Shown: positions 5,601 to 13,423 of the stretch, one piece after another
Position numbering within the stretch: position 1 is the stretch's first letter
Layout: every line of letters starts with the position of its first letter
Assembly: GCA_003152105.1 (NCBI GenBank)
Contig: PLZJ01000003.1
Span: 6,899 to 70,898 of the forward strand
Origin: Candidatus Levyibacteriota bacterium
Lineage (GTDB): Bacteria > Patescibacteriota > Microgenomatia > Levybacterales > UBA12049
DNA length: 64,000 nt
Direction: 5' to 3'
Made by a program: the position numbers and the translations under genes
Notes under the pieces: model-generated
Seen by the model: the letters and a program-made list of their open reading frames with translations, nothing else
What the model was told of the DNA's origin: nothing
Databases searched by the model: none

Positions 5601-6829
5601 GCTAAAATTATATATTTTGCTCCCGTACTATCTAAATAACTTACTAATTTAGGAGTATTGTAAAAATCACTGTATGGCATACTAATTAAATGACTTTGCG
5701 ATGGATCGGAATTGACACTAAACGTATCAAAGACACCACTTCCACCACTTGGTTGACTTGTTTGCGATATGTTGCCAACAAGCGTTGTACCATCTACAGC
5801 AAAATTTGTGTTTAAATCGTTTCTCAAACTATTAATAAAACTAAAATAATCAGTGCCAAGCGTTGGATAGATATACCAAACTTTTGTATAAGATTGACCT
5901 GATTTAATCATAAATTTATCATCTATAAGTCCCCCTTGATTTATGTTTTGTTCATACATTTCCTTTGTATGAACCCTTGATACGTCATCTCCGTTGTATA
6001 GACCTATGCCATTGACATTGTCGCTATAGAAAAAAGTGTCATTGCTACTTGCGGTGTTTATAAAGGTAGTATTTGATACACAGTACTGATGTTGTGGTAC
6101 ACCATTTATGGTAACATCGTTTTGGACAAGCGTAACTGCCGGACTAATAGCTTTTATTGCAGTTAATAAATTGTTAGCAGTATATGTGCCTACACTATAA
6201 CACGGATGCAAATCACCATTTGGGTTACTAAGTGAAACGCCGCCTACAAAGATGTTATTTAGATTCCCATTTTGCGAAGTAGTAATATAGTTTTTATTCA
6301 TGATCCCAACATCGCTGTTGCCTATATTCGTATACGTATCAGTAACCATTATTCGGCTGCTGCTGACTTTTTGAACTACTCTTACCAATTTATAATTCTG
6401 GTCAGCAGAAGTTATCGTATATTTTTGATTTAGTATGTTTGCGATTGTGCTCGTATTTGCCCATAATGGCTCAGAACTTGCTGAAACAGGAAAGGTGTTC
6501 CAATTACCGCTTTTTTGATTAGGATAGGAAAAATATGATGTTAACGCAAATGTGCTATTATTCTGCGATCCATTAACTAAAACTGAAATTTGTCCGTTAG
6601 TAACCTGTAAAGTAAAAGGTACTGACCAGGTGGTTTTTGGACCAATTACTTGACCAGATGCATTTTGGAAAAACGTTTGATACATCAAAACTCCCGAAGG
6701 AGTACCAAGAAGAAGCAGAATGAAAGATATTATAGCGATCTTTAAAAATGTTGATAAACTATTGAACTGGTGTGTAATCCTTATAACTATATTTTTACGT
6801 TTAAGATTTTGCATCAATATTTTAGCCAT
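2663..6829 (-). CDS. Giant secreted multidomain protein (1388 aa). Central GIDGIYFDDFEG glycoside-hydrolase-like module, PT linkers, and a C-terminal domain paralogous to the 14329..16275 protein
   Basis: N-terminal TM/signal segment. C-terminal ~330 aa (GAYDITNV...YLQDD...IDWSMS...PQTFYIP) aligns by eye to residues ~95-420 of the 648-aa protein. Confidence 0.55.
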   Translation of the reverse strand: MAKILMQNLKRKNIVIRITHQFNSLSTFLKIAIISFILLLLGTPSGVLMYQTFFQNASGQVIGPKTTWSVPFTLQVTNGQISVLVNGSQNNSTFALTSYFSYPNQKSGNWNTFPVSASSEPLWANTSTIANILNQKYTITSADQNYKLVRVVQKVSSSRIMVTDTYTNIGNSDVGIMNKNYITTSQNGNLNNIFVGGVSLSNPNGDLHPCYSVGTYTANNLLTAIKAISPAVTLVQNDVTINGVPQHQYCVSNTTFINTASSNDTFFYSDNVNGIGLYNGDDVSRVHTKEMYEQNINQGGLIDDKFMIKSGQSYTKVWYIYPTLGTDYFSFINSLRNDLNTNFAVDGTTLVGNISQTSQPSGGSGVFDTFSVNSDPSQSHLISMPYSDFYNTPKLVSYLDSTGAKYIILAQSLSSTQQAYDLNDNPIPGLTYLKYTFGNSATINTSQINNVLIPVIKQIKRASVLTKKKVKVLVYFEHNVGSDDNPDGSYGNTYSDALINTTPSLSSPLATVSPTPSALPTPTVVINNKVFLPPHTIPTPVYDQTTTLPDSSVLGASTTSKSYTYSCGLADTRVSISQANSEISALKNSNMCSANYAYPLSQPQSPSTDNLVCQRVSKSIDTNYPNCTSYQFYKPFAFNLFLNDPNLSYTSHLKQVLTTMLQNYGIDGIYFDDFEGYANTLGNNLVSGIDPTNDPSFPHPWYVKAYNYGSSTSKSTNQDLNTADINPVTFQIVNEKEDLSLHYPLAQKDLVDFVTQQSSKSAIANYVPELNEEYLPDMHIPRFAEDLNYDLQGKVAPQAQLFSPIAYEKIDSYSVNGFSKPYIDNAKDADQTHAQILRNYLHYGVLYYASAVPFSTTNNILTKIYPITPLELHQDYIIGTDKILTQKSGIYTYNDNSTLTAYIYNTFGAYVSSQIGSGSINLTLPVDYFAVIIKSLPSTDRSSLSLQNKFGAYDITNVNKNAIASNEAALEEASSLGITYTVSSHIAKNSPLYALYKANHITYLDNSLLILINKYLNKSCPLVPALHTRDQNCSISNSDLQLLSHDTTSYLHKTNNDPLIAGYYLQDDYVGNVKDALELVQNLVDQNNAHTQKFLPTVCAYGASLDYYTGSTLTQVSRGQFDRAIVNYSPDACNYISLYIYAGNYRNINGDATRIDWSMSTLLSYLLSELQWNGWDAKMQPIIGTPQTFYIPTQNYINPRAQDIATQSQSFCTNGAVSLLAYAWNDTSSDPLKAELGNSLTFENGFNRGIATCDRNWHISPPVHKIFTSTQITTTIPAVPPTSANLKSGICFKSITTLIDGTFPKKGNIAFYNKKGKLTGEFYDYYSKNGSSILCTFVAIDSTSTNPSQLGTETIWATYTDKSGKYQMSRSNDNAMTINIVKIHILIK

Positions 6830-6919
6830 ACATAAATTATTATAGATAACTTAATTATGATCAATTTTTAAAGCAGAGTCAAACAAAAGATTTTTACGTT
6901 TAACTAAAATATTGAGTAC

Positions 6920-6948
6920 TTGACTTGTCAGTACATTATCAGTACAAT
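6920..6948 (+). promoter_or_regulatory. Sigma70-like promoter (TTGACT-17-TACAAT) with two CAGTACA direct repeats 11 bp apart; candidate autoregulatory operator of the TA module
   Basis: Read directly upstream of ATG 6955. The -10 box is only 6 nt from the start codon. Confidence 0.45.
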
Positions 6949-6954
6949 ATTACT

Positions 6955-7197
6955 ATGTTAATTCAAAAGATATACAGAAACGGCAATTCTCTCGCAGTTA
7001 CAATTCCTAAACAATACTTGGAAGATCTCTCCTTAATAGAGGGTTCACAAGTTGTCGTTGAAAAGAAAGGTAATGGCATTCTTCTCACAACTAAAAAACA
7101 AACATTAGCACCTGATGTTGATGGTAAGTTCATGAAAATGGTTGATAGCTTCATCGATAAACATGAGGATGTACTTCAAAAACTCGCAAATAAGTGA
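6955..7197 (+). CDS. AbrB/MazE (SpoVT-AbrB fold) family antitoxin
   Basis: MLIQKIYRNGNSLAVTIPKQYLEDL matches the swapped-hairpin N-terminus of AbrB/MazE antitoxins. The ORF-track TTG start at 6925 was replaced by ATG 6955. Confidence 0.7.
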   Translation: MLIQKIYRNGNSLAVTIPKQYLEDLSLIEGSQVVVEKKGNGILLTTKKQTLAPDVDGKFMKMVDSFIDKHEDVLQKLANK

Positions 7198-7592
7198 ATA
7201 AAAAACACCATTATATAACCCCCAGTCAAGTGCTTGCAATTCATGATCAAGTGATAGAAAGATTTGGAGGATCAACAGGTCTTCGAGATTTAAGCCTACT
7301 TATATCTTCTGTACTTAGACCTCAAGCTAGTTTCGACGGTAATGATTTATATCCAACTCTATTTGAAAAAGCCGCGGCGTTGCTTCAATCACTTCTTAAA
7401 AATCACCCGTTTGTTGATGGAAATAAAAGAACATCGTTAACTTCGACTGGTATTTTTCTACAACTTAATGGATGGGAAATTGAAAATAGTCATGGTGAGG
7501 AAGTAGATTTTGCTATTAGAGTAGATAATGAGAACTTAACTTTGGAGCAAATTTGTTTGTGGTTAAAACAGCATTCTAAAGAACAAAATTAA
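7194..7592 (+). CDS. doc: Doc (death-on-curing) Fic-family toxin
   Basis: Fic/Doc motif HPFVDGNKRTS. The GTG start overlaps the antitoxin stop (GTGA), indicating translational coupling. Confidence 0.8.
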   Translation: MNKKHHYITPSQVLAIHDQVIERFGGSTGLRDLSLLISSVLRPQASFDGNDLYPTLFEKAAALLQSLLKNHPFVDGNKRTSLTSTGIFLQLNGWEIENSHGEEVDFAIRVDNENLTLEQICLWLKQHSKEQN

Positions 7593-7616
7593 TTTATCCT
7601 TAAGCATAGGACTTTG

Positions 7617-7690
7617 TGGACGATTAGGGATTCGGACCCCAGACCTCTTCAGTGTAAATGAAGCGCTCTAACCAGCTGAGCTAATCGTCC
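7617..7690 (-). tRNA. tRNA-Val (anticodon TAC)
   Basis: Reverse complement folds as a cloverleaf: GGACGAT acceptor, GCTCAGCTGGTTAGAGC D-arm, anticodon loop TTTACAC, T-loop GGTCCGAATCC. Confidence 0.85.
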
Positions 7691-7818
7691 AATTCACTCT
7701 CCGTGAGTTTTCATATTATACAAAAATAATTACCTTAGTCACAAGATGTTGAATAAATCACTATCTTGCCACGAAGTAAGCACTTAAAATCTTTGTATTG
7801 TAGTGCTATAATGCTGGC

Positions 7819-8262
7819 ATGAAACTTTTTATATATTCATTATTTACCTTCATGCTTTTTTCGATTTTTGGAGCTTCTGCACATTCTTCATTTGCACAAG
7901 CTACTCCCGTCGAATTTAATTCATTTACGACAAAAGATACGGCAACATATGTTGCATCAACCTTAAATACACAATGCTCAAAACGATTATTAACAGATAT
8001 TTTAAAAAAATATATTGTTACAGATACGATTTATCAAGATACGCTTCATAAGGAAATATACTTCAACGTATTACATCTTAAAGGAAATAGGCAAGATCAA
8101 GTATATGGGTATAAATTTGGGGATGGAAAGCCAAAAGGAATAAGAAATACGCTTTGTGTAGAAATTGCAGCATCAGATTCGTATATGCGTTTGAATTTTG
8201 ATGCAAATAAAATAGTAAAAATATATTTATTTACGAGCAGTACGTTTCCTTTTGGAACATAA
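7819..8262 (+). CDS. Small secreted hypothetical protein
   Basis: N-terminal signal peptide (MKLFIYSLFTFMLFSIFGASAHS). Low GC like the host. Confidence 0.45.
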   Translation: MKLFIYSLFTFMLFSIFGASAHSSFAQATPVEFNSFTTKDTATYVASTLNTQCSKRLLTDILKKYIVTDTIYQDTLHKEIYFNVLHLKGNRQDQVYGYKFGDGKPKGIRNTLCVEIAASDSYMRLNFDANKIVKIYLFTSSTFPFGT

Positions 8263-8289
8263 TAACTCAAATATTTTAGTCCTGTAGTA

Positions 8290-8317
8290 TTGACATACCC
8301 TCTTTTTCTGTTATAAT
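8290..8317 (+). promoter_or_regulatory. Near-consensus sigma70 promoter (TTGACA-16-TATAAT) ahead of the GC-rich cassette; ~190-nt leader follows
   Basis: Read directly. Confidence 0.5.
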
Positions 8318-8543
8318 TTCACCTAACGAATGTGTTAAAGCTAAACATTTGCTGTTTAACGTAAGATACGTTCGAAAAAGCACTTTTACAAGAAAGGAAA
8401 TAACCAACAATCCTTCTAGCGAATAGTTTTTTAGCCTTGGCGAAAGCGTAAAGCGTCTCAGAATTGTGAAATTTAAATGACAATATCACGTCCTGGAGCA
8501 TTTTGCGCTTTTGTTAAAGCACCTATTCTACTATGGAGGCAGT

Positions 8544-8984
8544 ATGACCCCTTTTCGAGTCGTTCGTTCGTCGTATAGAATGACCGTTTCGTACGAAGAT
8601 GGCCCCGGTTCACTTACAAATCCTGAGCAAGTACTCAGCGCAAAACACGTCGTTTTGACTGGTCAATGCAAAGATCCGAGTCTTTTGACGGCTGAAGCAC
8701 TTAGCTTCCATATCAGTCGTTTTCCTACATGTGATTACGAAGATTTTGGACCGGCAGTTGGAGATCATGATTATTCATACGAACTCCAAAAGAAAGAGGG
8801 AGACAAGTGGGTGTATGTCACTTTTTTGAATCCTTATGGTCGTAAGATCACATGTGAACATCAGAGTGAATACGATGAAGACCCAGAACTGTGGCCAGAG
8901 GAAGAAGACGAAGACGAAGAACCAAGGCTACCTCCCGCAACTGTTTTTAAACGATTTTCGACACACTTCAATCAAAGGAGATAA
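8544..8984 (+). CDS. Hypothetical protein with acidic C-terminus, in the GC-rich cassette
   Basis: ORF with strong RBS (GGAGG-4nt-ATG at 8544; the ORF-track start is 8511). GC is markedly higher than surrounding DNA. No recognisable motif. Confidence 0.45.
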   Translation: MTPFRVVRSSYRMTVSYEDGPGSLTNPEQVLSAKHVVLTGQCKDPSLLTAEALSFHISRFPTCDYEDFGPAVGDHDYSYELQKKEGDKWVYVTFLNPYGRKITCEHQSEYDEDPELWPEEEDEDEEPRLPPATVFKRFSTHFNQRR

Positions 8985-8986
8985 CA

Positions 8987-9421
8987 ATGATTGATACTAA
9001 AAATCCGTTCACCAATCTTGACGAAGTCAGAACCGCACGTGAGTACTGTATCACAATCAGAGATCACGCCGACGCGTTCATCGCTCACAGGCACTTTGAT
9101 CGGTACAGAAACGGGACAATTCCGAGCATTTCAACTCGTCAGTTCAAACTCGTTGAATCGACGTGCATCGAAGCAGAAGATATTCCAGCTCACCCAACAC
9201 TTCCTTACGAGGACGTGCCGGAACTATTCCTTCAACCTACATTTATGTGTGTTGTTTACAGCTCACATAAAGTCGCACACTTTCCGGACAAAGACGTGCA
9301 TCTGAGGATGATTCACCTTTGTGCAGAATGGGAGCAAGAGTATCACCTCTATATCGTCGACGATCAGGTCGTTATGACGCTTTTGAGTCGCAATCAAGGA
9401 CGGTTAAATCCCATTAGCTAG
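8987..9421 (+). CDS. Hypothetical protein, in the GC-rich cassette
   Basis: AGGAG RBS 8 nt upstream. Starts 3 nt after the previous stop. GC-rich. No recognisable motif. Confidence 0.45.
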   Translation: MIDTKNPFTNLDEVRTAREYCITIRDHADAFIAHRHFDRYRNGTIPSISTRQFKLVESTCIEAEDIPAHPTLPYEDVPELFLQPTFMCVVYSSHKVAHFPDKDVHLRMIHLCAEWEQEYHLYIVDDQVVMTLLSRNQGRLNPIS

Positions 9422-9513
9422 AGTCGGAATCGACGCGTTGGTTTAGGGTAATAAGCAGAAGGAAATTCATGTAGCTACTTTGTTACATACAACCCCTTCT
9501 CACCCTTCCTTTC

Positions 9514-9567
9514 TTTCCGTCTACTGCTATAAGCAGTACTGATGAGTCCTTTTAGGACGAAACGAGA
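9514..9567 (+). ncRNA. Type III hammerhead self-cleaving ribozyme
   Basis: Read directly: stem III 5' strand ..ccGUC, with cleavage expected after C9521; stem I hairpin UACUGC-UAUAA-GCAGUA; core CUGAUGA; stem II GUCC-UUUUA-GGAC; GAAAC with A15.1 pairing to U16.1. All invariant core nucleotides are present in canonical order. Confidence 0.7.
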
Positions 9568-9852
9568 TACTTCGATTATATATAGTGCCCCATATGGGAC
9601 GATGTTCGAACCTATTTGTGCCTAAACATCGATCAGGGTGAAAAGACAAGCTTGCTTTCTGCAATTAATCACTTCAAAAAGAAGGAAATTGAATGAAAAT
9701 TTATTTTCTTCCTTCCAATAATGAGGTTGGAACAATTTCTTCGACCATTCTCCAAACCAGATCTTTAGGAAACTCACTGTATCATATGTGACAAAAGCTT
9801 CTCCTTACAAACGGTTGAATTAAGAGCATCTAAGAATAACTAAGAATAATTA

Positions 9853-9881
9853 TTGACAAACTTATATTTGAGCACTATAAT
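9853..9881 (+). promoter_or_regulatory. Perfect consensus sigma70 promoter (TTGACA-17-TATAAT), 8 nt upstream of ATG 9889
   Basis: Read directly. Preceded by the direct repeat CTAAGAATAA x2 at 9829-9848. Confidence 0.6.
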
Positions 9882-9888
9882 AAATAAA

Positions 9889-10260
9889 ATGACTAAAGAA
9901 AGTATAGATCCAAACAAAGTTTACACCACTCAAGAAGCAGCAGATGTCCTTGGTGTTTCTGAACAAATACTAGTTATGCAATTAAGGAATGGTAAAATTA
10001 CTGGACAATATATTGGAAAAGGGTGGAAAATATTGGGTCAGAACATCATTGACTTTCTAAAAAAACCTCAAGGATTAATTGAGCGGTTAGCTGAAACTAT
10101 GCTGGAAGAAGAAAGTAAGTCAGACTCGTCAAATAAACAAAGCCCTGTAGAAAATGCTGTTCAAAGATTACTCAATGGTAGCTCAACATCTCCAAGATAT
10201 ACTCCTGAACAAATTGATTTAGCACTAAAACAATACAAAGAAAAGAAAGGAATTACCTAA
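9889..10260 (+). CDS. Helix-turn-helix DNA-binding protein (excisionase/MerR-like HTH) with a low-complexity C-terminus
   Basis: YTTQEAADVLGVSEQILVMQLRNGKI is a typical excisionase-family HTH. The ORF-track TTG start at 9853 lies inside the promoter and was replaced by ATG 9889. Confidence 0.55.
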   Translation: MTKESIDPNKVYTTQEAADVLGVSEQILVMQLRNGKITGQYIGKGWKILGQNIIDFLKKPQGLIERLAETMLEEESKSDSSNKQSPVENAVQRLLNGSSTSPRYTPEQIDLALKQYKEKKGIT

Positions 10261-10262
10261 TT

Positions 10263-10694
10263 ATGCCAAGTCTTAAAATGGTCAAGCACCAGGCATGGGC
10301 TTTTTATAGTAAATGGAAAAAACAAAAAACTTTCTCTCCAGCTTTCAACTCTGATGTTAGAGTATCACTTAAAGGTTGGTACCACATAACTGGAGCAAGA
10401 GGATTCAAACAGAGAAGTGCAGGCGATGTATATCGAAGACTTATGATTTTACATCATGCAAAAACTATAATTGAAACAGCAACCACGATTCAAAACGTTC
10501 AAGTCAAAGGGAAAATCACTTATTATGCCTTAGACTCTGTTACGCAAGTTTCAGAAAATGACAAAACTGAGTGGAGAAAATTAAGAGTAATTATTATTGA
10601 CGATATTAAAGGAAACAAAGTTTTTTATTCAGTTATGGATAAAAAACCAAGTATAAGACCTAAAATACAAAAAAAGAGGATGCCTCACCCTTAG
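10263..10694 (+). CDS. Hypothetical basic protein, coupled to the HTH gene
   Basis: Starts 3 nt after the HTH gene's stop. No recognisable motif. Confidence 0.4.
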   Translation: MPSLKMVKHQAWAFYSKWKKQKTFSPAFNSDVRVSLKGWYHITGARGFKQRSAGDVYRRLMILHHAKTIIETATTIQNVQVKGKITYYALDSVTQVSENDKTEWRKLRVIIIDDIKGNKVFYSVMDKKPSIRPKIQKKRMPHP

Positions 10695-10790
10695 GAATTA
10701 ACGTTAGGGTACTGAGCGGTAAAAACCGCTTCATCCTCAAAAGAAGTATAACAAAATAAAATATTTTTGTCAACCTCTACTATAGGCCTG

Positions 10791-10878
10791 TGGTGCGGAT
10801 GAGAGGACTTGAACCTCCACGCCTTATTCAGGCACAGCCACCTCAAGGCTGCGTGTATGCCAATTTCACCACATCCGC
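10791..10878 (-). tRNA. tRNA-Leu (anticodon GAG), type II with long variable arm, CCA encoded
   Basis: Reverse complement GCGGATGTGGTGAAATTGGCA...anticodon loop TTGAGGT...long variable arm...GGTTCAAGTCC...CGCACCA. Confidence 0.85.
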
Positions 10879-10931
10879 ATGTGTAACATTATACCTAATA
10901 TATTCTCTATTTTAAACCTTACATCTATATG

Positions 10932-11015
10932 TACCGTGGAGAGGAGTCGAACCTCCATGCCTTTTTGGGGCACTGGTACCTGAAACCAGCGCGTCTGCCA
11001 TTTCGCCACCACGGT
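10932..11015 (-). tRNA. tRNA-Leu (anticodon CAG), type II
   Basis: Reverse complement ACCGTGG-TG-GCG-AAATGGCAGA-CGC...anticodon loop TTCAGGT...variable arm TGCCCCAAAAAGGCA...TTCGACT T-loop. Confidence 0.8.
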
Positions 11016-11111
11016 TTATGTAAAATGGTGCTATGTATTATAACGTAGCTTCGATTGTAACAAAGTCATATTGTATTGACAAGGAACCTTAAATATGTAA
11101 ATATTATATGA

Positions 11112-11699
11112 ATGAGGAAGTTTATTCTGCTCGCAACTTTCTTAATCGTAACTCCAATATTTCTAATTTTTAGCATCATATTTGTTGCTTTGATTCATTT
11201 TGAGCATATTCAGTCTCAATTCTTAACAAGCGTAGCTCAGCCGCAAACAGTTGCGTATGCAGCTTTACCTACAACCCAAAATAGCCTTTCTGATCAAATA
11301 ATAGAACAAAATGCCAGAGCTGAGATGTTAACGCAGTTTTTTGAGCAATATAATTCACCCCTTGCGCCGTACGCACAAACAATCGTAGATGAAGCTGATG
11401 CATATAATCTTGATTTTAGACTTCTTCCCGCAATAGCTATGCAAGAATCTGATGGTTGTTTAAAAGCACCACCTAACTCTGATAATTGCTGGGGATTTGG
11501 TATCTATGGCCATACGGTAACTCGCTTTGATTCATACCCAAGTGCTATTCAGGCAGTAAGTAAGGCTTTAGCCGAAAAATATGCCTCAAAAGGTCTTAAA
11601 ACTCCTGAGCAAATAATGAGTATTTATGACCCTCCAAGCTCGGCAAATGGAGGAAGATGGGCCGATAGCGTAAGCTATTTCATGAATAAACTTCAATAG
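11112..11699 (+). CDS. Membrane-anchored peptidoglycan hydrolase of the lysozyme-like superfamily (GH73 glucosaminidase-like / SLT-like)
   Basis: N-terminal TM. AIAMQESDG catalytic-Glu motif and NCWGFGIY motif. Paralog of the 11884..12444 gene. Confidence 0.5.
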   Translation: MRKFILLATFLIVTPIFLIFSIIFVALIHFEHIQSQFLTSVAQPQTVAYAALPTTQNSLSDQIIEQNARAEMLTQFFEQYNSPLAPYAQTIVDEADAYNLDFRLLPAIAMQESDGCLKAPPNSDNCWGFGIYGHTVTRFDSYPSAIQAVSKALAEKYASKGLKTPEQIMSIYDPPSSANGGRWADSVSYFMNKLQ

Positions 11700-12595: not shown

Positions 12596-13423
12596 ATGGC
12601 AACAACATTACAAAAAGCAATAGACGGAACAATTACCTTAACAATCGCAATTCCTGCTGCAGATATTGAAAAGGCAAAAAAAGAAGTACTTGAATCATTT
12701 TCTAAAGAAGCGCAAGTAGCTGGATTTCGAAAAGGAAAAGCTCCTAAAAAACTAGTTGAAGATAAGGTGAATGAAGATAAGCTACGTGAAGAAATTCTTC
12801 GAACTACACTTCCCAAAGCATATGTTGCTGCGGTTACAGAACAAAAGTTGCAACCAGTTCTTAATCCAAAAATTCATATTAATAAAATAGAGGAGGGGAA
12901 AGACTGGACTTTTACTGCAGTTACTTGTGAAGCGCCAAAACTTAATCTTGGAGATTATAAAAAAAGAGTACAAGATGTAACGGCAAAAAGCAAAATTATT
13001 GTCCCTGGAAAAGAGCAAACTTCACCAAGTCTTGATGATATTGTTTCAGCACTTTTGTCAGGAATTGATGGCGCAATTCCTTCGGTTATTTTAGATCAAG
13101 AAGTTGATAGACTGCTCGCACAAACCCTTGATGAAATTAAAACGCTTGGTATATCGCTTGAGCAATATCTTTCTTCAACAAACAGAACAGTTGAGGGAAT
13201 TAGGCAAGAGTATAAAAAAAGAGCTGAAAATGATGTCAAATTAGAATTTGCGCTTCAACAAATAGCTGAAGATGCAAAAATTGTTATTGAAGAAAAAGAA
13301 ATAGATGAGGCAATACAAAAAGCCAAAGACAAGAAAGAACAAGAACAAATGCAGGCCAATCGCTATTTATTAACGAGTATTTTACGACAACAAAAAACCT
13401 TTGATTATTTAAAAAACCTATAG
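12596..13423 (+). CDS. tig: Trigger-factor-like protein (short, ~276 aa; N-terminal ribosome-binding domain signature)
   Basis: GFRKGKAPKKLV matches the trigger factor GFRxGxxP ribosome-docking signature. The start was moved to ATG 12596 to clear tRNA-Leu. Confidence 0.5.
   Translation: MATTLQKAIDGTITLTIAIPAADIEKAKKEVLESFSKEAQVAGFRKGKAPKKLVEDKVNEDKLREEILRTTLPKAYVAAVTEQKLQPVLNPKIHINKIEEGKDWTFTAVTCEAPKLNLGDYKKRVQDVTAKSKIIVPGKEQTSPSLDDIVSALLSGIDGAIPSVILDQEVDRLLAQTLDEIKTLGISLEQYLSSTNRTVEGIRQEYKKRAENDVKLEFALQQIAEDAKIVIEEKEIDEAIQKAKDKKEQEQMQANRYLLTSILRQQKTFDYLKNL

What the first reader, a model, noticed from the sequence alone, without database searches (positions are those of the whole stretch)
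7617..10878. tRNA-bounded accessory stretch (tRNA-Val ... tRNA-Leu-Leu) with island-like content but no integrase
Between tRNA-Val (7617-7690, minus) and the tandem tRNA-Leu pair (10791-11015, minus) lie a small secreted protein, the GC-rich cassette plus ribozyme, and an excisionase-like HTH gene plus an unknown gene under a perfect TTGACA-17-TATAAT promoter. The 3' end of tRNA-Leu(GAG) faces this stretch, the usual geometry for tRNA-targeted integration. A Doc/AbrB TA module sits just outside the tRNA-Val. No integrase or att repeat was found by eye, so this could be a degraded or non-canonical island.
Basis: inference. Interest (0 to 1): 0.55.

Follow-up and report, generated by a model that had tools for sequence, protein, structure and literature searches.

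The report
Accessory islet splitting a tRNA operon
A 3.1-kb block of foreign genes with no recombinase sits between two tRNA genes that are 4 bases apart in a related bacterium; it is an ordinary kind of genomic islet, but it carries a hammerhead-tailed orphan gene pair and a previously uncatalogued small RNA paired with a putative RNase.

Summary
tRNA-Val(TAC) and tRNA-Leu(GAG)/Leu(CAG) bracket 3,100 bp (7691-10790). The stretch carries a signal-peptide gene, a GC-rich orphan gene pair with a hammerhead motif, and an HTH_17 gene plus a 143-aa gene behind a perfect promoter. The genome is a 1.14-Mb Levyibacteriota (CPR) scaffold.

In relative L005 the same tRNAs lie 4 nt apart with the right flank syntenic. 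In relative L007 the same tRNA-Leu(GAG) 3' end abuts a large serine recombinase with relaxase-like, TraG-like and Fic genes. No stretch gene recurs in the six related loci fetched. So the stretch is accessory and sits at a mobile-element hot spot.

No att repeat and no recombinase was found in the 64-kb window. The stretch is a mosaic of three promoter-equipped modules, and only the orphan pair has foreign composition.

Unexpected result: the 143-aa protein looks like a BECR-fold RNase (invariant His41 and Ser123). Its 3' end overlaps a convergent ~70-nt three-way-junction sRNA that has its own promoter and U-run. This RNA has 56 distinct copies in metagenomes, strong covariation and no Rfam match. 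It is a candidate RNA-antitoxin module.

As an island this is a new member of a known kind.

The parts
6925..7592 (+). AbrB/MazE-type antitoxin (6925-7197) and Doc/Fic toxin (7194-7592). A type II TA pair just outside the stretch, abutting the 3' end of tRNA-Val(TAC).
   Evidence: Pfam MazE_antitoxin E 1.8e-9 and Fic E 3.4e-19; PHROG Doc-like toxin E 1.3e-37. No homolog in related loci.
7616..7690 (-). tRNA-Val(TAC), left boundary. Its 5' end faces the stretch.
   Evidence: ARAGORN; Rfam 66.7 bits. In L005 it starts 4 nt after tRNA-Leu(GAG).
7715..7744 (-). Promoter-like site inside the inserted DNA, placed to drive tRNA-Val now that it is cut off from the tRNA-Leu promoter.
   Evidence: TTGTGA-18-TATAAT / GTGACT-16-TATAAT, 10 of 12 matches. 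The -10 box ends about 24 nt before the tRNA 5' end. Function is inferred.
7784..8262 (+). Module A: promoter-like site (7784-7812) and a 147-aa protein with a signal-peptide-like N-terminus (7819-8262).
   Evidence: No Pfam, NCBIfam or PHROG family. Host-like composition, GC3 0.19, CAI 0.71. Absent from related loci.
8290..8317 (+). Perfect extended -10 sigma-70 promoter of the GC-rich cassette.
   Evidence: TTGACA-16-TATAAT with TG, 12 of 12 matches.
8324..8543 (+). Structured 5' leader of about 220 nt. A long hairpin pairs the GGAGG Shine-Dalgarno sequence of the first cassette gene.
   Evidence: MFE -57.1 kcal/mol, z -3.4, 0 of 200 shuffles fold as well.
8544..9421 (+). Module B: two orphan genes (146 aa at 8544-8984 with an acidic tail; 144 aa at 8987-9421), both with strong SD sequences and foreign composition.
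   Evidence: Only self-hits among 5.8e9 proteins. Exhaustive HMMER on the second gene found only a spurious repeat protein. GC3 0.354 and 0.490, CAI 0.53 and 0.44, against background 0.202 +/- 0.022 and 0.681 +/- 0.019.
9514..9568 (+). Hammerhead ribozyme motif, type III topology, 93 nt after the cassette stop codon. Predicted cleavage is after C9521.
   Evidence: RF00008 36.1 bits (gathering score 48.5), E 3e-5 in 4.5 kb and 1.4e-6 in 201 nt. Perfect core, stems I and II formed, stem III only 3 bp plus a mismatch.
9853..9881 (+). Perfect TTGACA-17-TATAAT promoter. The -10 box ends 7 nt before the ATG at 9889, which implies a leaderless mRNA.
   Evidence: and the sequence.
9889..10260 (+). Module C gene 1: 123-aa excisionase-family (HTH_17 / MerR-like) DNA-binding protein.
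   Evidence: HTH_17 E 1.3e-5; TIGR01764 E 1e-5; MamR-like E 3.4e-12. The 38%-identical counterpart in L020 occupies the same position.
10263..10694 (+). Module C gene 2: 143-aa putative BECR-fold endoRNase from a family not in Pfam, NCBIfam or PADLOC.
   Evidence: AF2 model pLDDT 84.7. Foldseek: CdiA-CT Kp342 entry 6cp9, prob 0.99, TM 0.4-0.5; phage polyvalent proteins, E 1e-4, TMq 0.55-0.63. His41 and Ser123 invariant in 33 distinct members. Homologs sit in mobile-element or TA contexts.
10667..10738 (-). Module C gene 3: ~70-nt three-way-junction sRNA, convergent with the 143-aa gene and overlapping its last 19 nt. It ends in a 7-U run.
   Evidence: Covariance model R1: 75 bits, E 1.8e-20, the only copy in the window. 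In 49 sequences, 88.6% of cells pair against 32-46% for slid controls, with 18 covarying pairs. MFE equals the consensus, z -3.97. No Rfam hit.
10745..10773 (-). Promoter of the sRNA (TTGACA-17-TGnTATACT). The predicted transcription start is the first base of the closing stem.
   Evidence: 11 of 12 matches. An equivalent promoter (at least 9 of 12) lies at the same position in 37 of 47 other loci.
10791..11015 (-). tRNA-Leu(GAG) 10791-10878 and tRNA-Leu(CAG) 10931-11015, right boundary. The 3' end of Leu(GAG) faces the stretch.
   Evidence: Window, L005 and L007 diverge immediately after ...CATCCGCAC of tRNA-Leu(GAG).

Best explanation
The 3,100 bp between tRNA-Leu(GAG) and tRNA-Val(TAC) is horizontally acquired accessory DNA. 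It is lodged in what is, in relatives, one compact tRNA operon, at a tRNA 3' end that mobile elements use as a landing site in this lineage. It is not one intact island. It is a recombinase-less mosaic (an 'islet') of three self-contained, promoter-equipped modules.

Module A is a secreted-protein gene, plus a promoter that keeps the orphaned tRNA-Val expressed.

Module B is a recently acquired pair of orphan genes from a higher-GC donor. A consensus promoter transcribes it through a structured leader. I infer that a hammerhead ribozyme cuts the transcript at its 3' end, which would separate it from the genes downstream.

Module C is a small selfish cassette made of an HTH regulator, a BECR-like RNase and a convergent antisense sRNA. 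I read module C as a toxin-antitoxin-like module in which the sRNA restrains the RNase, by pairing with the 3' end of its mRNA and/or by binding the protein, and the HTH represses the operon. Such a module would also stabilise the islet after any integrase was lost.

Shown: absence from relatives, occupation of the same tRNA end by an integrative element in L007, the mosaic composition, and the conserved protein-sRNA pairing. Inferred: site-specific integration followed by loss of the recombinase, hammerhead cleavage, and toxin/antitoxin activity.
For: Synteny: in L005 Leu(GAG) and Val(TAC) are 4 nt apart and the right flank is conserved in L005-L007. Hot spot: in L007 a 512-aa Resolvase+Recombinase+Zn_ribbon_recom protein ends inside the tRNA-Leu(GAG) 3' end, preceded by Replic_Relax, Fic and TraG/TraD-like genes. 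None of the stretch proteins, nor AbrB, Doc or the large left-flank proteins, occurs in L005-L010. Mosaic: three to four separate near-consensus promoters; only cas1 and cas2 are compositionally foreign; both are orphans. Module C recurs elsewhere as a unit: L020 has HTH, an 80%-identical protein and the sRNA. The protein+sRNA core occurs with 45 of 56 distinct RNA sequences, in variable contexts beside AbiEii, IS21, tyrosine recombinases, Fic and T4SS pilins. The sRNA has covariation, a conserved promoter, terminators, and G.U exceeding A.C by 30 to 13 on the proposed strand. No conserved protein partner lies upstream of the RNase-like gene outside the window/L020 clade. BECR signature. An independent Logan assembly (L002) spans cas1 through to about 30 nt inside tRNA-Leu(GAG).
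Against: No att direct repeat, no partial tRNA copy and no recombinase or recombinase fragment was found, so integrase-mediated origin is unproven. The relatives are distant (trigger factor 54-57% identical), no empty-site strain was found, and the direction of change is argued by parsimony. Three of the five genes have host-like composition. The hammerhead scores below Rfam's gathering score and has a weak stem III. BECR assignment rests on weak Foldseek E-values (1e-2 against PDB, 1e-4 against BFVD) and on no sequence-family hit. Eleven sRNA variants stand alone, which a strict toxin-antitoxin pairing does not require and does not explain.
Confidence: 0.7

Rival explanations
1. The stretch is still a mobile, non-autonomous element (an integrative mobilisable element or satellite). 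A recombinase encoded elsewhere in the 1.14-Mb genome, or on a helper element, excises and integrates it, with the HTH_17 protein acting as its recombination directionality factor (Xis).
For: The HTH belongs to the excisionase family. The geometry at the tRNA 3' end is right. A related genome has a serine-recombinase element at this exact site. Serine recombinases need only a 2-bp crossover (established knowledge), so long att repeats are not mandatory.
Against: No recombinase homolog lies within 64 kb. An insertion into a tRNA gene would still leave a displaced tRNA fragment, and none exists. The junction lies just outside the tRNA. In L020 the HTH travels with the RNase-like gene and the sRNA, not with an integrase. 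The three modules differ in composition, which argues against one co-travelling unit.
Confidence: 0.12
2. The block is ancestral to this lineage and was deleted in the L005 and L007 lineages. It would then be native, lineage-specific DNA rather than an acquired islet.
For: Three of the five genes have host-like GC3 and CAI. The relatives are distant. There are no insertion scars.
Against: The compact Leu-Leu-Val-Phe tRNA array in L005 looks like the operon state, with a 4-nt spacer. The content differs completely between window, L005 and L007. cas1 and cas2 have GC3 values 7 to 13 SD above background and are orphans. Module C is found in unrelated contexts in dozens of metagenome contigs.
Confidence: 0.1
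3. Module C is an ordinary type II toxin-antitoxin pair, with the HTH_17 protein as antitoxin and the 143-aa protein as toxin. The convergent sRNA would be an unrelated or merely accessory regulator.
For: The genes are tightly coupled (stop at 10260, start at 10263). The order HTH first, toxin second is typical. The pair recurs in L020.
Against: The HTH gene is present in only 2 of 46 loci that carry the 143-aa family, and no other conserved upstream ORF exists. By contrast the sRNA accompanies all 9 homologs found by protein search, and 45 of 56 distinct RNA sequences have the protein.
Confidence: 0.2
4. The stretch is an assembly chimera that joins unrelated contigs at repeated tRNA sequence.
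For: Short Logan contigs break at tRNA-Leu(GAG) (L002 ends and L096 starts there). The two tRNA-Leu genes share 25-nt identities.
Against: The same arrangement is present in the ENA scaffold and in further long-contig records counted by the look-ups (source tags). L002 reads from cas1 through module C to about 30 nt into tRNA-Leu(GAG). L096 starts at the 3' end of tRNA-Leu(GAG), overlapping the end of L002, and continues into the right flank.
Confidence: 0.03

Closest known systems
tRNA-associated genomic islands / integrative elements (P4-type islands, ICEs and IMEs at tRNA 3' ends)
   Same: It lies against the 3' end of a tRNA gene and is absent from relatives. It carries cargo of TA-like, secreted and orphan genes and an excisionase-family HTH. 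The same tRNA end holds a recombinase-bearing conjugative or mobilisable element in relative L007.
   Different: It has no integrase, no att direct repeats and no displaced tRNA fragment. It is only 3.1 kb. It is bounded on the far side by another tRNA of the same operon rather than by an attR. Composition is heterogeneous, which indicates several acquisitions.
Type I toxin-antitoxin systems with 3'-overlapping antisense RNAs (Bacillus txpA/RatA, bsrG/SR4; own knowledge)
   Same: A small, constitutively promoted, structured antisense RNA is transcribed convergently and overlaps the 3' end of the partner mRNA. The module sits in mobile or accessory DNA.
   Different: The partner is a 130-150-aa soluble BECR-like protein, not a hydrophobic peptide under 60 aa. 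The overlap is short (about 20 nt of coding sequence, or only the 3' UTR). The RNA's three-way junction and its junction nucleotides are conserved beyond what antisense pairing needs. Eleven RNA variants occur alone.
Type III toxin-antitoxin systems (ToxIN, CptIN, TenpIN; own knowledge)
   Same: A putative endoRNase is paired with a structured non-coding RNA as its only conserved partner.
   Different: Type III antitoxins are tandem repeats upstream of the toxin on the same strand, processed by the toxin. Here there is a single-copy, convergent RNA with its own promoter.
BECR-fold RNases (colicin D, CdiA-CT Kp342, phage PBECR domains; PMC5512222, PMC9086364)
   Same: The predicted fold has N-terminal helices followed by a 4-stranded antiparallel sheet, with an invariant His in a helix and an invariant Ser in the last strand. 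It occurs as a solo domain in mobile elements that carry T4SS genes.
   Different: No sequence-level match to any Pfam PBECR or BECR family. Structural matches are weak (TM 0.4-0.63). Activity is untested.
Hammerhead ribozyme type III (Rfam RF00008)
   Same: Complete catalytic core, a GUC cleavage triplet, and closed stems I and II with an open stem III.
   Different: It scores below the gathering threshold. Both capping loops are very small, so the usual loop-loop tertiary contact is unlikely (inference). Stem III is weak. It sits in the 3' UTR of an orphan operon in a CPR genome. Three viral-contig hammerheads that share the core and stem II have a closed stem III, a different topology.

Membership tests
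tRNA-targeted integrative genomic island | Lies directly at the 3' end of a tRNA gene | tested here: met
   The 3' end of tRNA-Leu(GAG) at 10791 faces the stretch. Sequences of window, L005 and L007 diverge right after ...CATCCGCAC.
tRNA-targeted integrative genomic island | Encodes an integrase (tyrosine or serine recombinase) | tested here: not met
   No recombinase domain in the five ORFs. tblastn with one serine and two tyrosine recombinases finds nothing in 64 kb.
tRNA-targeted integrative genomic island | Flanked by direct repeats (attL/attR) that duplicate part of the tRNA | tested here: not met
   The repeat finder with seed 8 and blastn-short with word size 7: no partial copy of tRNA-Leu(GAG) or tRNA-Val(TAC) beyond the paralogous tRNAs.
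tRNA-targeted integrative genomic island | Absent from the same site in related genomes | tested here: met
   In L005, Leu(GAG) and Val(TAC) are 4 nt apart. L007 has different content at the site. No homologs of the stretch genes in L005-L010. The relatives are distant (54-57% trigger-factor identity).
tRNA-targeted integrative genomic island | Composition differs from the host | tested here: inconclusive
   cas1 and cas2 are clearly foreign (GC3 0.35 and 0.49 against 0.20 +/- 0.02). sec147, HTH and the 143-aa gene are host-like.
Excisionase / recombination directionality factor | Excisionase-family wHTH domain, encoded next to its integrase | tested here: inconclusive
   The domain is present just under threshold (HTH_17 25.8 bits against 27; TIGR01764 25.8 bits against 28.8). 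There is no adjacent integrase. In L020 the gene pairs with the 143-aa gene instead.
Hammerhead ribozyme type III (RF00008) | Conserved core (CUGAUGA, GAAA, NUH cleavage site) with three helices in type III order | tested here: met
   Alignment to RF00008 over model positions 1-54. Core identical, stem I 7 bp, stem II 5 bp, stem III 3 bp plus a mismatch.
Hammerhead ribozyme type III (RF00008) | Reaches Rfam's gathering score | tested here: not met
   36.1 bits against 48.5.
Hammerhead ribozyme type III (RF00008) | Self-cleavage | not testable with these tools
   Needs in vitro transcription and a cleavage assay.
BECR-fold endoRNase | Helix or helices followed by a 4-5-stranded antiparallel sheet | tested here: inconclusive
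BECR-fold endoRNase | Conserved His in an N-terminal helix and Ser/Thr in strand 4 (PMC5512222) | tested here: met
   H41 (helix 36-43) and S123 (strand 119-126) are invariant in 33 of 33 distinct members. The spatial arrangement was not inspected.
BECR-fold endoRNase | Sequence match to a described BECR/PBECR family | tested here: not met
   No Pfam, NCBIfam, PADLOC or PHROG hit for any of the 9 members scanned, and no PDB sequence hit.
Type I toxin-antitoxin system | Cis-encoded antisense RNA that overlaps the toxin mRNA | tested here: met
   A convergent sRNA gene with its own promoter and U-run overlaps the last 19 nt of the ORF. The arrangement recurs with 45 distinct RNA sequences. Transcription itself is predicted, not observed.
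Type I toxin-antitoxin system | Small hydrophobic or membrane-active toxin peptide | tested here: not met
   The partner is a 130-150-aa soluble alpha/beta protein.
Type III toxin-antitoxin system | Antitoxin is a tandem array of RNA repeats upstream of the toxin on the same strand | tested here: not met
   The covariance model finds a single copy on the opposite strand. No tandem array appears in the repeat search of 6500-11300.
Rfam RNA families (any) | Match of the three-way-junction sRNA to a curated covariance model | tested here: not met
   No hit at E up to 10 at 10667-10738, and none at the motif in nine other loci at E up to 5.

The most novel reading that the evidence does not exclude
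The BECR-like protein and the convergent three-way-junction sRNA (with an HTH regulator in the window's clade) form a previously undescribed family of RNA-antitoxin toxin-antitoxin or defence modules in CPR bacteria. The structured sRNA would neutralise an endoRNase by antisense pairing with the mRNA 3' end and/or by binding the protein as a pseudo-substrate, making it a hybrid of types I and III. In this window it would act as the addiction module that keeps a recombinase-less islet, including a hammerhead-processed orphan operon, fixed inside a tRNA operon.
Probability: 0.35. Interest if true: 0.7.

Novelty: new member of a known kind. Interest (0 to 1): 0.5.

Why it matters
As an island it mainly adds a documented example. 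A tRNA operon in a reduced CPR genome serves as a landing pad for mobile DNA, and cargo can persist there without any recombinase. That is useful for interpreting accessory DNA in Patescibacteria, where mobile elements are poorly charted.

The greater value lies in the cargo. First, there is a structured sRNA family with 56 distinct sequences, strong covariation, its own promoter and terminator, and no Rfam entry. It is tightly linked to an unannotated protein family with a BECR-RNase signature. If this is an RNA-antitoxin system, it would extend the known partners of RNA antitoxins to BECR nucleases and give CPR bacteria their first such module. Second, there is a hammerhead motif at the 3' end of a freshly acquired orphan operon. 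This is a concrete place to test what bacterial hammerheads do to operon transcripts.

Tried and rejected
1. att search: the repeat finder and blastn-short with the whole tRNAs and their flanks against the window, L005 and L007 found nothing beyond the paralogous tRNAs.
2. Recombinase search in the 64-kb window by tblastn: nothing.
3. Empty-site or variant strains: an exact look-up of the adjacent 195-aa protein returned only the same strain.
4. DNA similarity of the 3.1 kb to phage and plasmid collections, blastn 'distant' mode: no match.
5. Orphan pair: two indexed searches and one exhaustive HMMER search gave only self-hits plus a spurious repeat protein. The single-sequence AF2 model of the second gene had pLDDT 35 and was unusable.
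7. Reading the conserved 63-nt element as a DNA recombination site (integron attC-like) or as an integration target: rejected. It has a positioned promoter, U-run or hairpin terminators, and more G.U than A.C on one strand. The tyrosine recombinases that neighbour it lie on its promoter side, and only in a few contexts. attC core sites were checked by eye only.
8. An alternative small terminator hairpin (10677-10691) flagged is not conserved in other loci, judged by eye from the sequences.
9. Hammerhead relatives: three viral-contig hits share the core and stem II but have a different topology.
10. Four pattern hits (L041, L042, L053, L093) were dismissed as false positives by the covariance model.
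11. Literature searches for hammerheads in CPR, CPR islands, and RNA antitoxins with BECR toxins found nothing relevant.

Full report
OBSERVATION.
- tRNAs: ARAGORN and Rfam place tRNA-Val(TAC) at 7616/7617-7690, tRNA-Leu(GAG) at 10791-10878 and tRNA-Leu(CAG) at 10931-11015, all on the minus strand. The 3' end of Leu(GAG) and the 5' end of Val(TAC) therefore face the intervening 3,100 bp, 7691-10790.
- ORFs: a 147-aa protein with a signal-like N-terminus (7819-8262), two ORFs of 146 and 144 aa (8544-8984 and 8987-9421), a 123-aa HTH protein (9889-10260) and a 143-aa protein (10263-10694).
- Composition: GC rises to 0.44-0.47 across about 8400-9600, against 0.30-0.36 around it.
- Hammerhead: a type III motif lies at 9514-9568. 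It scores 36.1 bits, E 3e-5, below the gathering score of 48.5. It has a perfect core and well-formed stems I and II.
- Promoters: perfect sigma-70 consensus sites lie at 8290-8317 and 9853-9881.
- Left flank: AbrB/MazE and Doc lie just left of tRNA-Val.
- Negative results: repeat searches and short-word BLAST find no partial tRNA copy. tblastn with recombinases finds none in the window.

SOURCE AND RELATIVES. The sequence is part of a 1.139-Mb metagenome scaffold (ENA ERZ28653421, WOOD18-1_SAMN07125042). I scanned one genome per species with the nearby trigger factor and recovered six loci, among them a MAG labelled Candidatus Levyibacteriota and two labelled Patescibacteria. The best three are 54-57% identical. 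The host is therefore a CPR bacterium of the Levyibacteriota neighbourhood.

THE SYNTENY TEST.
- L005 carries tRNA-Leu(CAG), tRNA-Leu(GAG), tRNA-Val(TAC), tRNA-Phe and, after a GIY-YIG ORF, tRNA-Gly, all on one strand. Leu(GAG) and Val(TAC) are separated by 4 nt.
- The right flank is the same as in the window: two glucosaminidase-like genes, tRNA-Leu(TAG), trigger factor, DUF5660 and tRNA-Val(GAC). It is also conserved in L006 and L007.
- In L007 the tRNA-Leu pair is present, but the 3' end of Leu(GAG) is overlapped by the end of a 512-aa large serine recombinase (Resolvase, Recombinase, Zn_ribbon_recom). Upstream of it lie a Replic_Relax protein, a Fic-HTH protein and a TraG/TraD-type fragment. 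This is an integrative conjugative or mobilisable element at exactly this tRNA end.
- None of the five stretch proteins has a homolog in any of the six related loci. Neither do AbrB, Doc or the two large proteins to the left.
- The three genomes diverge immediately after ...CATCCGCAC of tRNA-Leu(GAG).

The stretch is accessory, and the site is a mobile-element hot spot in this lineage. One caveat: the relatives are distant, and I found no strain with an empty site. 'Insertion here' is the parsimonious reading, not a demonstrated one.

ANATOMY: A MOSAIC, NOT ONE ISLAND. Codon statistics against 21 long genes of the window give a background GC3 of 0.202 +/- 0.022 and CAI of 0.681 +/- 0.019. Only the two cassette genes are foreign (GC3 0.354 and 0.490; CAI 0.53 and 0.44). 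The secreted-protein, HTH and 143-aa genes are host-like. Each block has its own promoter.

Module A (7691-8270) holds the secreted-protein gene. On the minus strand it also holds a TATAAT-bearing promoter-like site about 24 nt upstream of tRNA-Val. That site would be needed because the insertion cuts tRNA-Val off from the promoter upstream of the tRNA-Leu pair. This is inference.

Module B (about 8290-9600) has four parts.
- A perfect extended -10 promoter.
- A 220-nt leader that folds into a long hairpin pairing the GGAGG ribosome-binding site (z -3.4).
- Two orphan genes. Both gave only self-hits among 5.8 billion proteins, and an exhaustive HMMER search on the second gene added nothing real.
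- The hammerhead, 93 nt after the stop codon.

No plus-strand terminator is predicted between the cassette and the next operon. Hammerhead cleavage after C9521 would therefore be the event that ends the cassette transcript and uncouples it from the downstream genes. This too is inference.

MODULE C IS THE SURPRISE. The 143-aa protein has eight homologs in the indexed protein database. All sit in accessory contexts:
- next to an AbiEii/DUF6922 pair;
- between an IS21 transposase/IstB pair and a tyrosine recombinase with a DUF87/TraG-type ATPase;
- beside T4SS pilins;
- in the closest case (L020, 80% identity), again directly behind an HTH_17 gene that is 38% identical to the window's.

Downstream of every homolog lies a conserved element of about 63 nt that usually overlaps the stop codon. 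It forms a three-way junction: a closing stem of 7-11 bp, a 5-bp hairpin with a UUUUUA loop, and a second hairpin. The junction nucleotides are conserved (CAUGAC, GUGAGGC).

A degenerate pattern for this element found 1 viral contig and 70 metagenome contigs. Four of the metagenome hits are false positives. On 49 distinct sequences:
- 88.6% of cells pair, against 32-46% when partners are slid;
- 18 of 23 pairs show compensatory changes (217 cells);
- no shuffle reaches the observed values (first seen on 8 sequences).

The strand of the RNA is the one opposite to the protein gene, on four grounds.
- In 37 of 47 loci a promoter with at least 9 of 12 matches sits at a fixed distance, so that transcription would start at the first base of the closing stem. 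In the window it is TTGACA-17-TGnTATACT at 10773-10745.
- The closing stem is followed by a U-run or by a separate GC hairpin plus U-run.
- G.U pairs outnumber A.C by 30 to 13 in the core helices, and by 9 to 0 in helix 2.
- The single-sequence MFE fold of the window copy equals the consensus (z -3.97).

A covariance model finds one copy in the window (10662-10744, minus strand, 75 bits, E 1.8e-20) and none in the related loci. Rfam 15 has no match.

Of 56 distinct RNA sequences, 45 have the protein gene convergent and abutting, and 11 are solo. Conversely, only the window and L020 have the HTH gene, and no other conserved ORF precedes the protein gene. The sRNA is thus the only conserved partner of the protein.

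THE PROTEIN. An AlphaFold model built from nine sequences is confident (pLDDT 84.7). It shows helices followed by a four-stranded antiparallel sheet.
- The only structurally sensible PDB match is the CdiA-CT/CdiI complex of K. pneumoniae 342: entry 6cp9, chains A/C/E/G, prob 0.99, TM 0.4-0.5, E about 1e-2. Its toxin is a BECR-fold tRNase with a helices-then-four-strands topology (PMC9086364).
- In the viral library the best matches are phage 'large polyvalent protein' entries (E 1e-4, TMq 0.55-0.63). Those proteins are rich in phage-BECR RNase domains (PMC5512222).
- That paper gives the usual BECR active site as a His in an N-terminal helix and a Ser/Thr in strand 4. In 33 distinct family members, H41 (helix 36-43) and S123 (last strand) are invariant.
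- No sequence library recognises the family.

I therefore call it a putative BECR-like endoRNase, with moderate confidence.

HOW IT MOST LIKELY WORKS.
Shown: accessory status, the hot spot, the mosaic composition, and the conserved protein-sRNA architecture.
Inferred:
- One or more elements integrated at, or recombined next to, the tRNA-Leu(GAG) 3' end. The recombinase-bearing part was then lost, leaving cargo.
- The cargo brought promoters that keep tRNA-Val and its own genes expressed.
- Module C behaves as a toxin-antitoxin-like cassette. The abundant sRNA counteracts the RNase by duplex formation with the convergent mRNA 3' end and/or by direct binding. The HTH represses a leaderless operon.
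- This addiction function would favour retention of the islet.

RIVALS.
- A still-mobile, non-autonomous element served in trans (0.12).
- An ancestral block deleted in the relatives (0.10).
- Module C as a plain type II pair with the HTH as antitoxin (0.20, at the sub-module level).
- An assembly chimera (0.03). An independent Logan contig reads from the cassette into tRNA-Leu(GAG), which argues against this.

COMPARISON WITH KNOWN SYSTEMS. As an island it resembles tRNA-associated islands and ICE/IME insertions, but it fails two defining tests: it has no integrase and no att repeats. It is best described as an islet or remnant at a tRNA hot spot. Module C works like a type I system with a 3'-overlapping antisense RNA, but its toxin class is wrong for type I and its RNA architecture is wrong for type III. 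The hammerhead meets the structural definition but not Rfam's score threshold.

NOVELTY AND SCORE. The island itself is a new member of a known kind, and for a specialist it is unsurprising. The sRNA family and its linkage to a BECR-like protein appear to be undescribed: there is no Rfam, Pfam or PADLOC entry, and the papers I could search hold nothing relevant. This is the most interesting lead, and I give it a probability of 0.35 of being a new RNA-antitoxin module. Overall interest is 0.5.

LIMITS.
- The relatives are distant.
- Only ±10 kb of each related locus was seen.
- There are no expression data.
- The fold evidence is weak, and two fold libraries were unavailable.
- The secreted protein was never searched against the large protein databases.
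- The metagenome pattern was strict, so the counts of solo versus paired RNAs are biased towards close variants.

Noticed in passing
window 10667-10738 (minus), promoter 10745-10773: A ~70-nt three-way-junction sRNA with its own near-consensus promoter and U-run, convergent with the 143-aa gene and overlapping its 3' end. There are 56 distinct homologous sequences in metagenomes, strong covariation and no Rfam match.
   Followed up: yes
window 10263-10694: The 143-aa protein belongs to an unannotated family with a predicted BECR-like RNase fold. His41 and Ser123 are invariant in 33 distinct members. Homologs lie beside AbiEii, IS21, tyrosine recombinases, Fic and T4SS pilin genes.
   Followed up: yes
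window 8324-8543: The 220-nt leader of the GC-rich cassette folds into a long hairpin (z -3.4) that pairs the GGAGG ribosome-binding site of the first orphan gene. It may be a translational control element.
   Followed up: partly
window 9853-9891: The perfect promoter's -10 box ends 7 nt before the ATG of the HTH gene, which implies a leaderless mRNA. L020 has a similar arrangement, with TTGACA about 28 nt before its ATG.
   Followed up: partly
L007:124-5574: The relative's tRNA-Leu(GAG) 3' end is overlapped by a 512-aa large serine recombinase. Upstream lie Replic_Relax, Fic-HTH and TraG/TraD-like genes. This is an ICE/IME-like element at the same site.
   Followed up: partly
window 10788-10794; compare 7613-7617 and 10928-10932: tRNA-Leu(GAG) is followed by an encoded CCA. 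The neighbouring tRNA-Val(TAC) and tRNA-Leu(CAG), and the Leu(GAG) orthologs in L005 and L007, are not.
   Followed up: no
L001:90-603 (about 1 kb left of the window start) and window 6925-7592: A ParE/PhdYeFM pair lies just beyond the window start. Together with AbrB/Doc and module C, that makes three TA-like modules within about 12 kb, interspersed with 809/843-aa and 1388-aa proteins that have no family. The variable zone probably extends left of tRNA-Val.
   Followed up: no
L005:7960-8062: Three tandem copies of a ~35-nt unit (GCCTGCACTGAGATCATTGTCAAATGACCGAAAT) lie between a GIY-YIG ORF and tRNA-Phe in the relative's tRNA cluster.
   Followed up: no
L020:1100-1156 versus window 10760-10800: The short L020 contig ends ...CTATAGTGCACCAT. 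This resembles the window's junction with the tRNA-Leu 3' end (...CTATAGGCCTGTGGTGCGG). Module C may sit against a tRNA 3' end there too, but only about 9 nt are available.
   Followed up: no
L002 end / L096 start (window about 10792-10820): Independent short-read assemblies break inside tRNA-Leu(GAG). This could reflect the 25-nt identity between the two tRNA-Leu genes, or strain heterogeneity at this junction.
   Followed up: no
window 12596-13423: The trigger factor here and in relatives is only about 275 aa, with Trigger_N and Trigger_C but no hit on record for a middle PPIase domain. The called ORF start (12491) overlaps tRNA-Leu(TAG) and is probably wrong.
   Followed up: no
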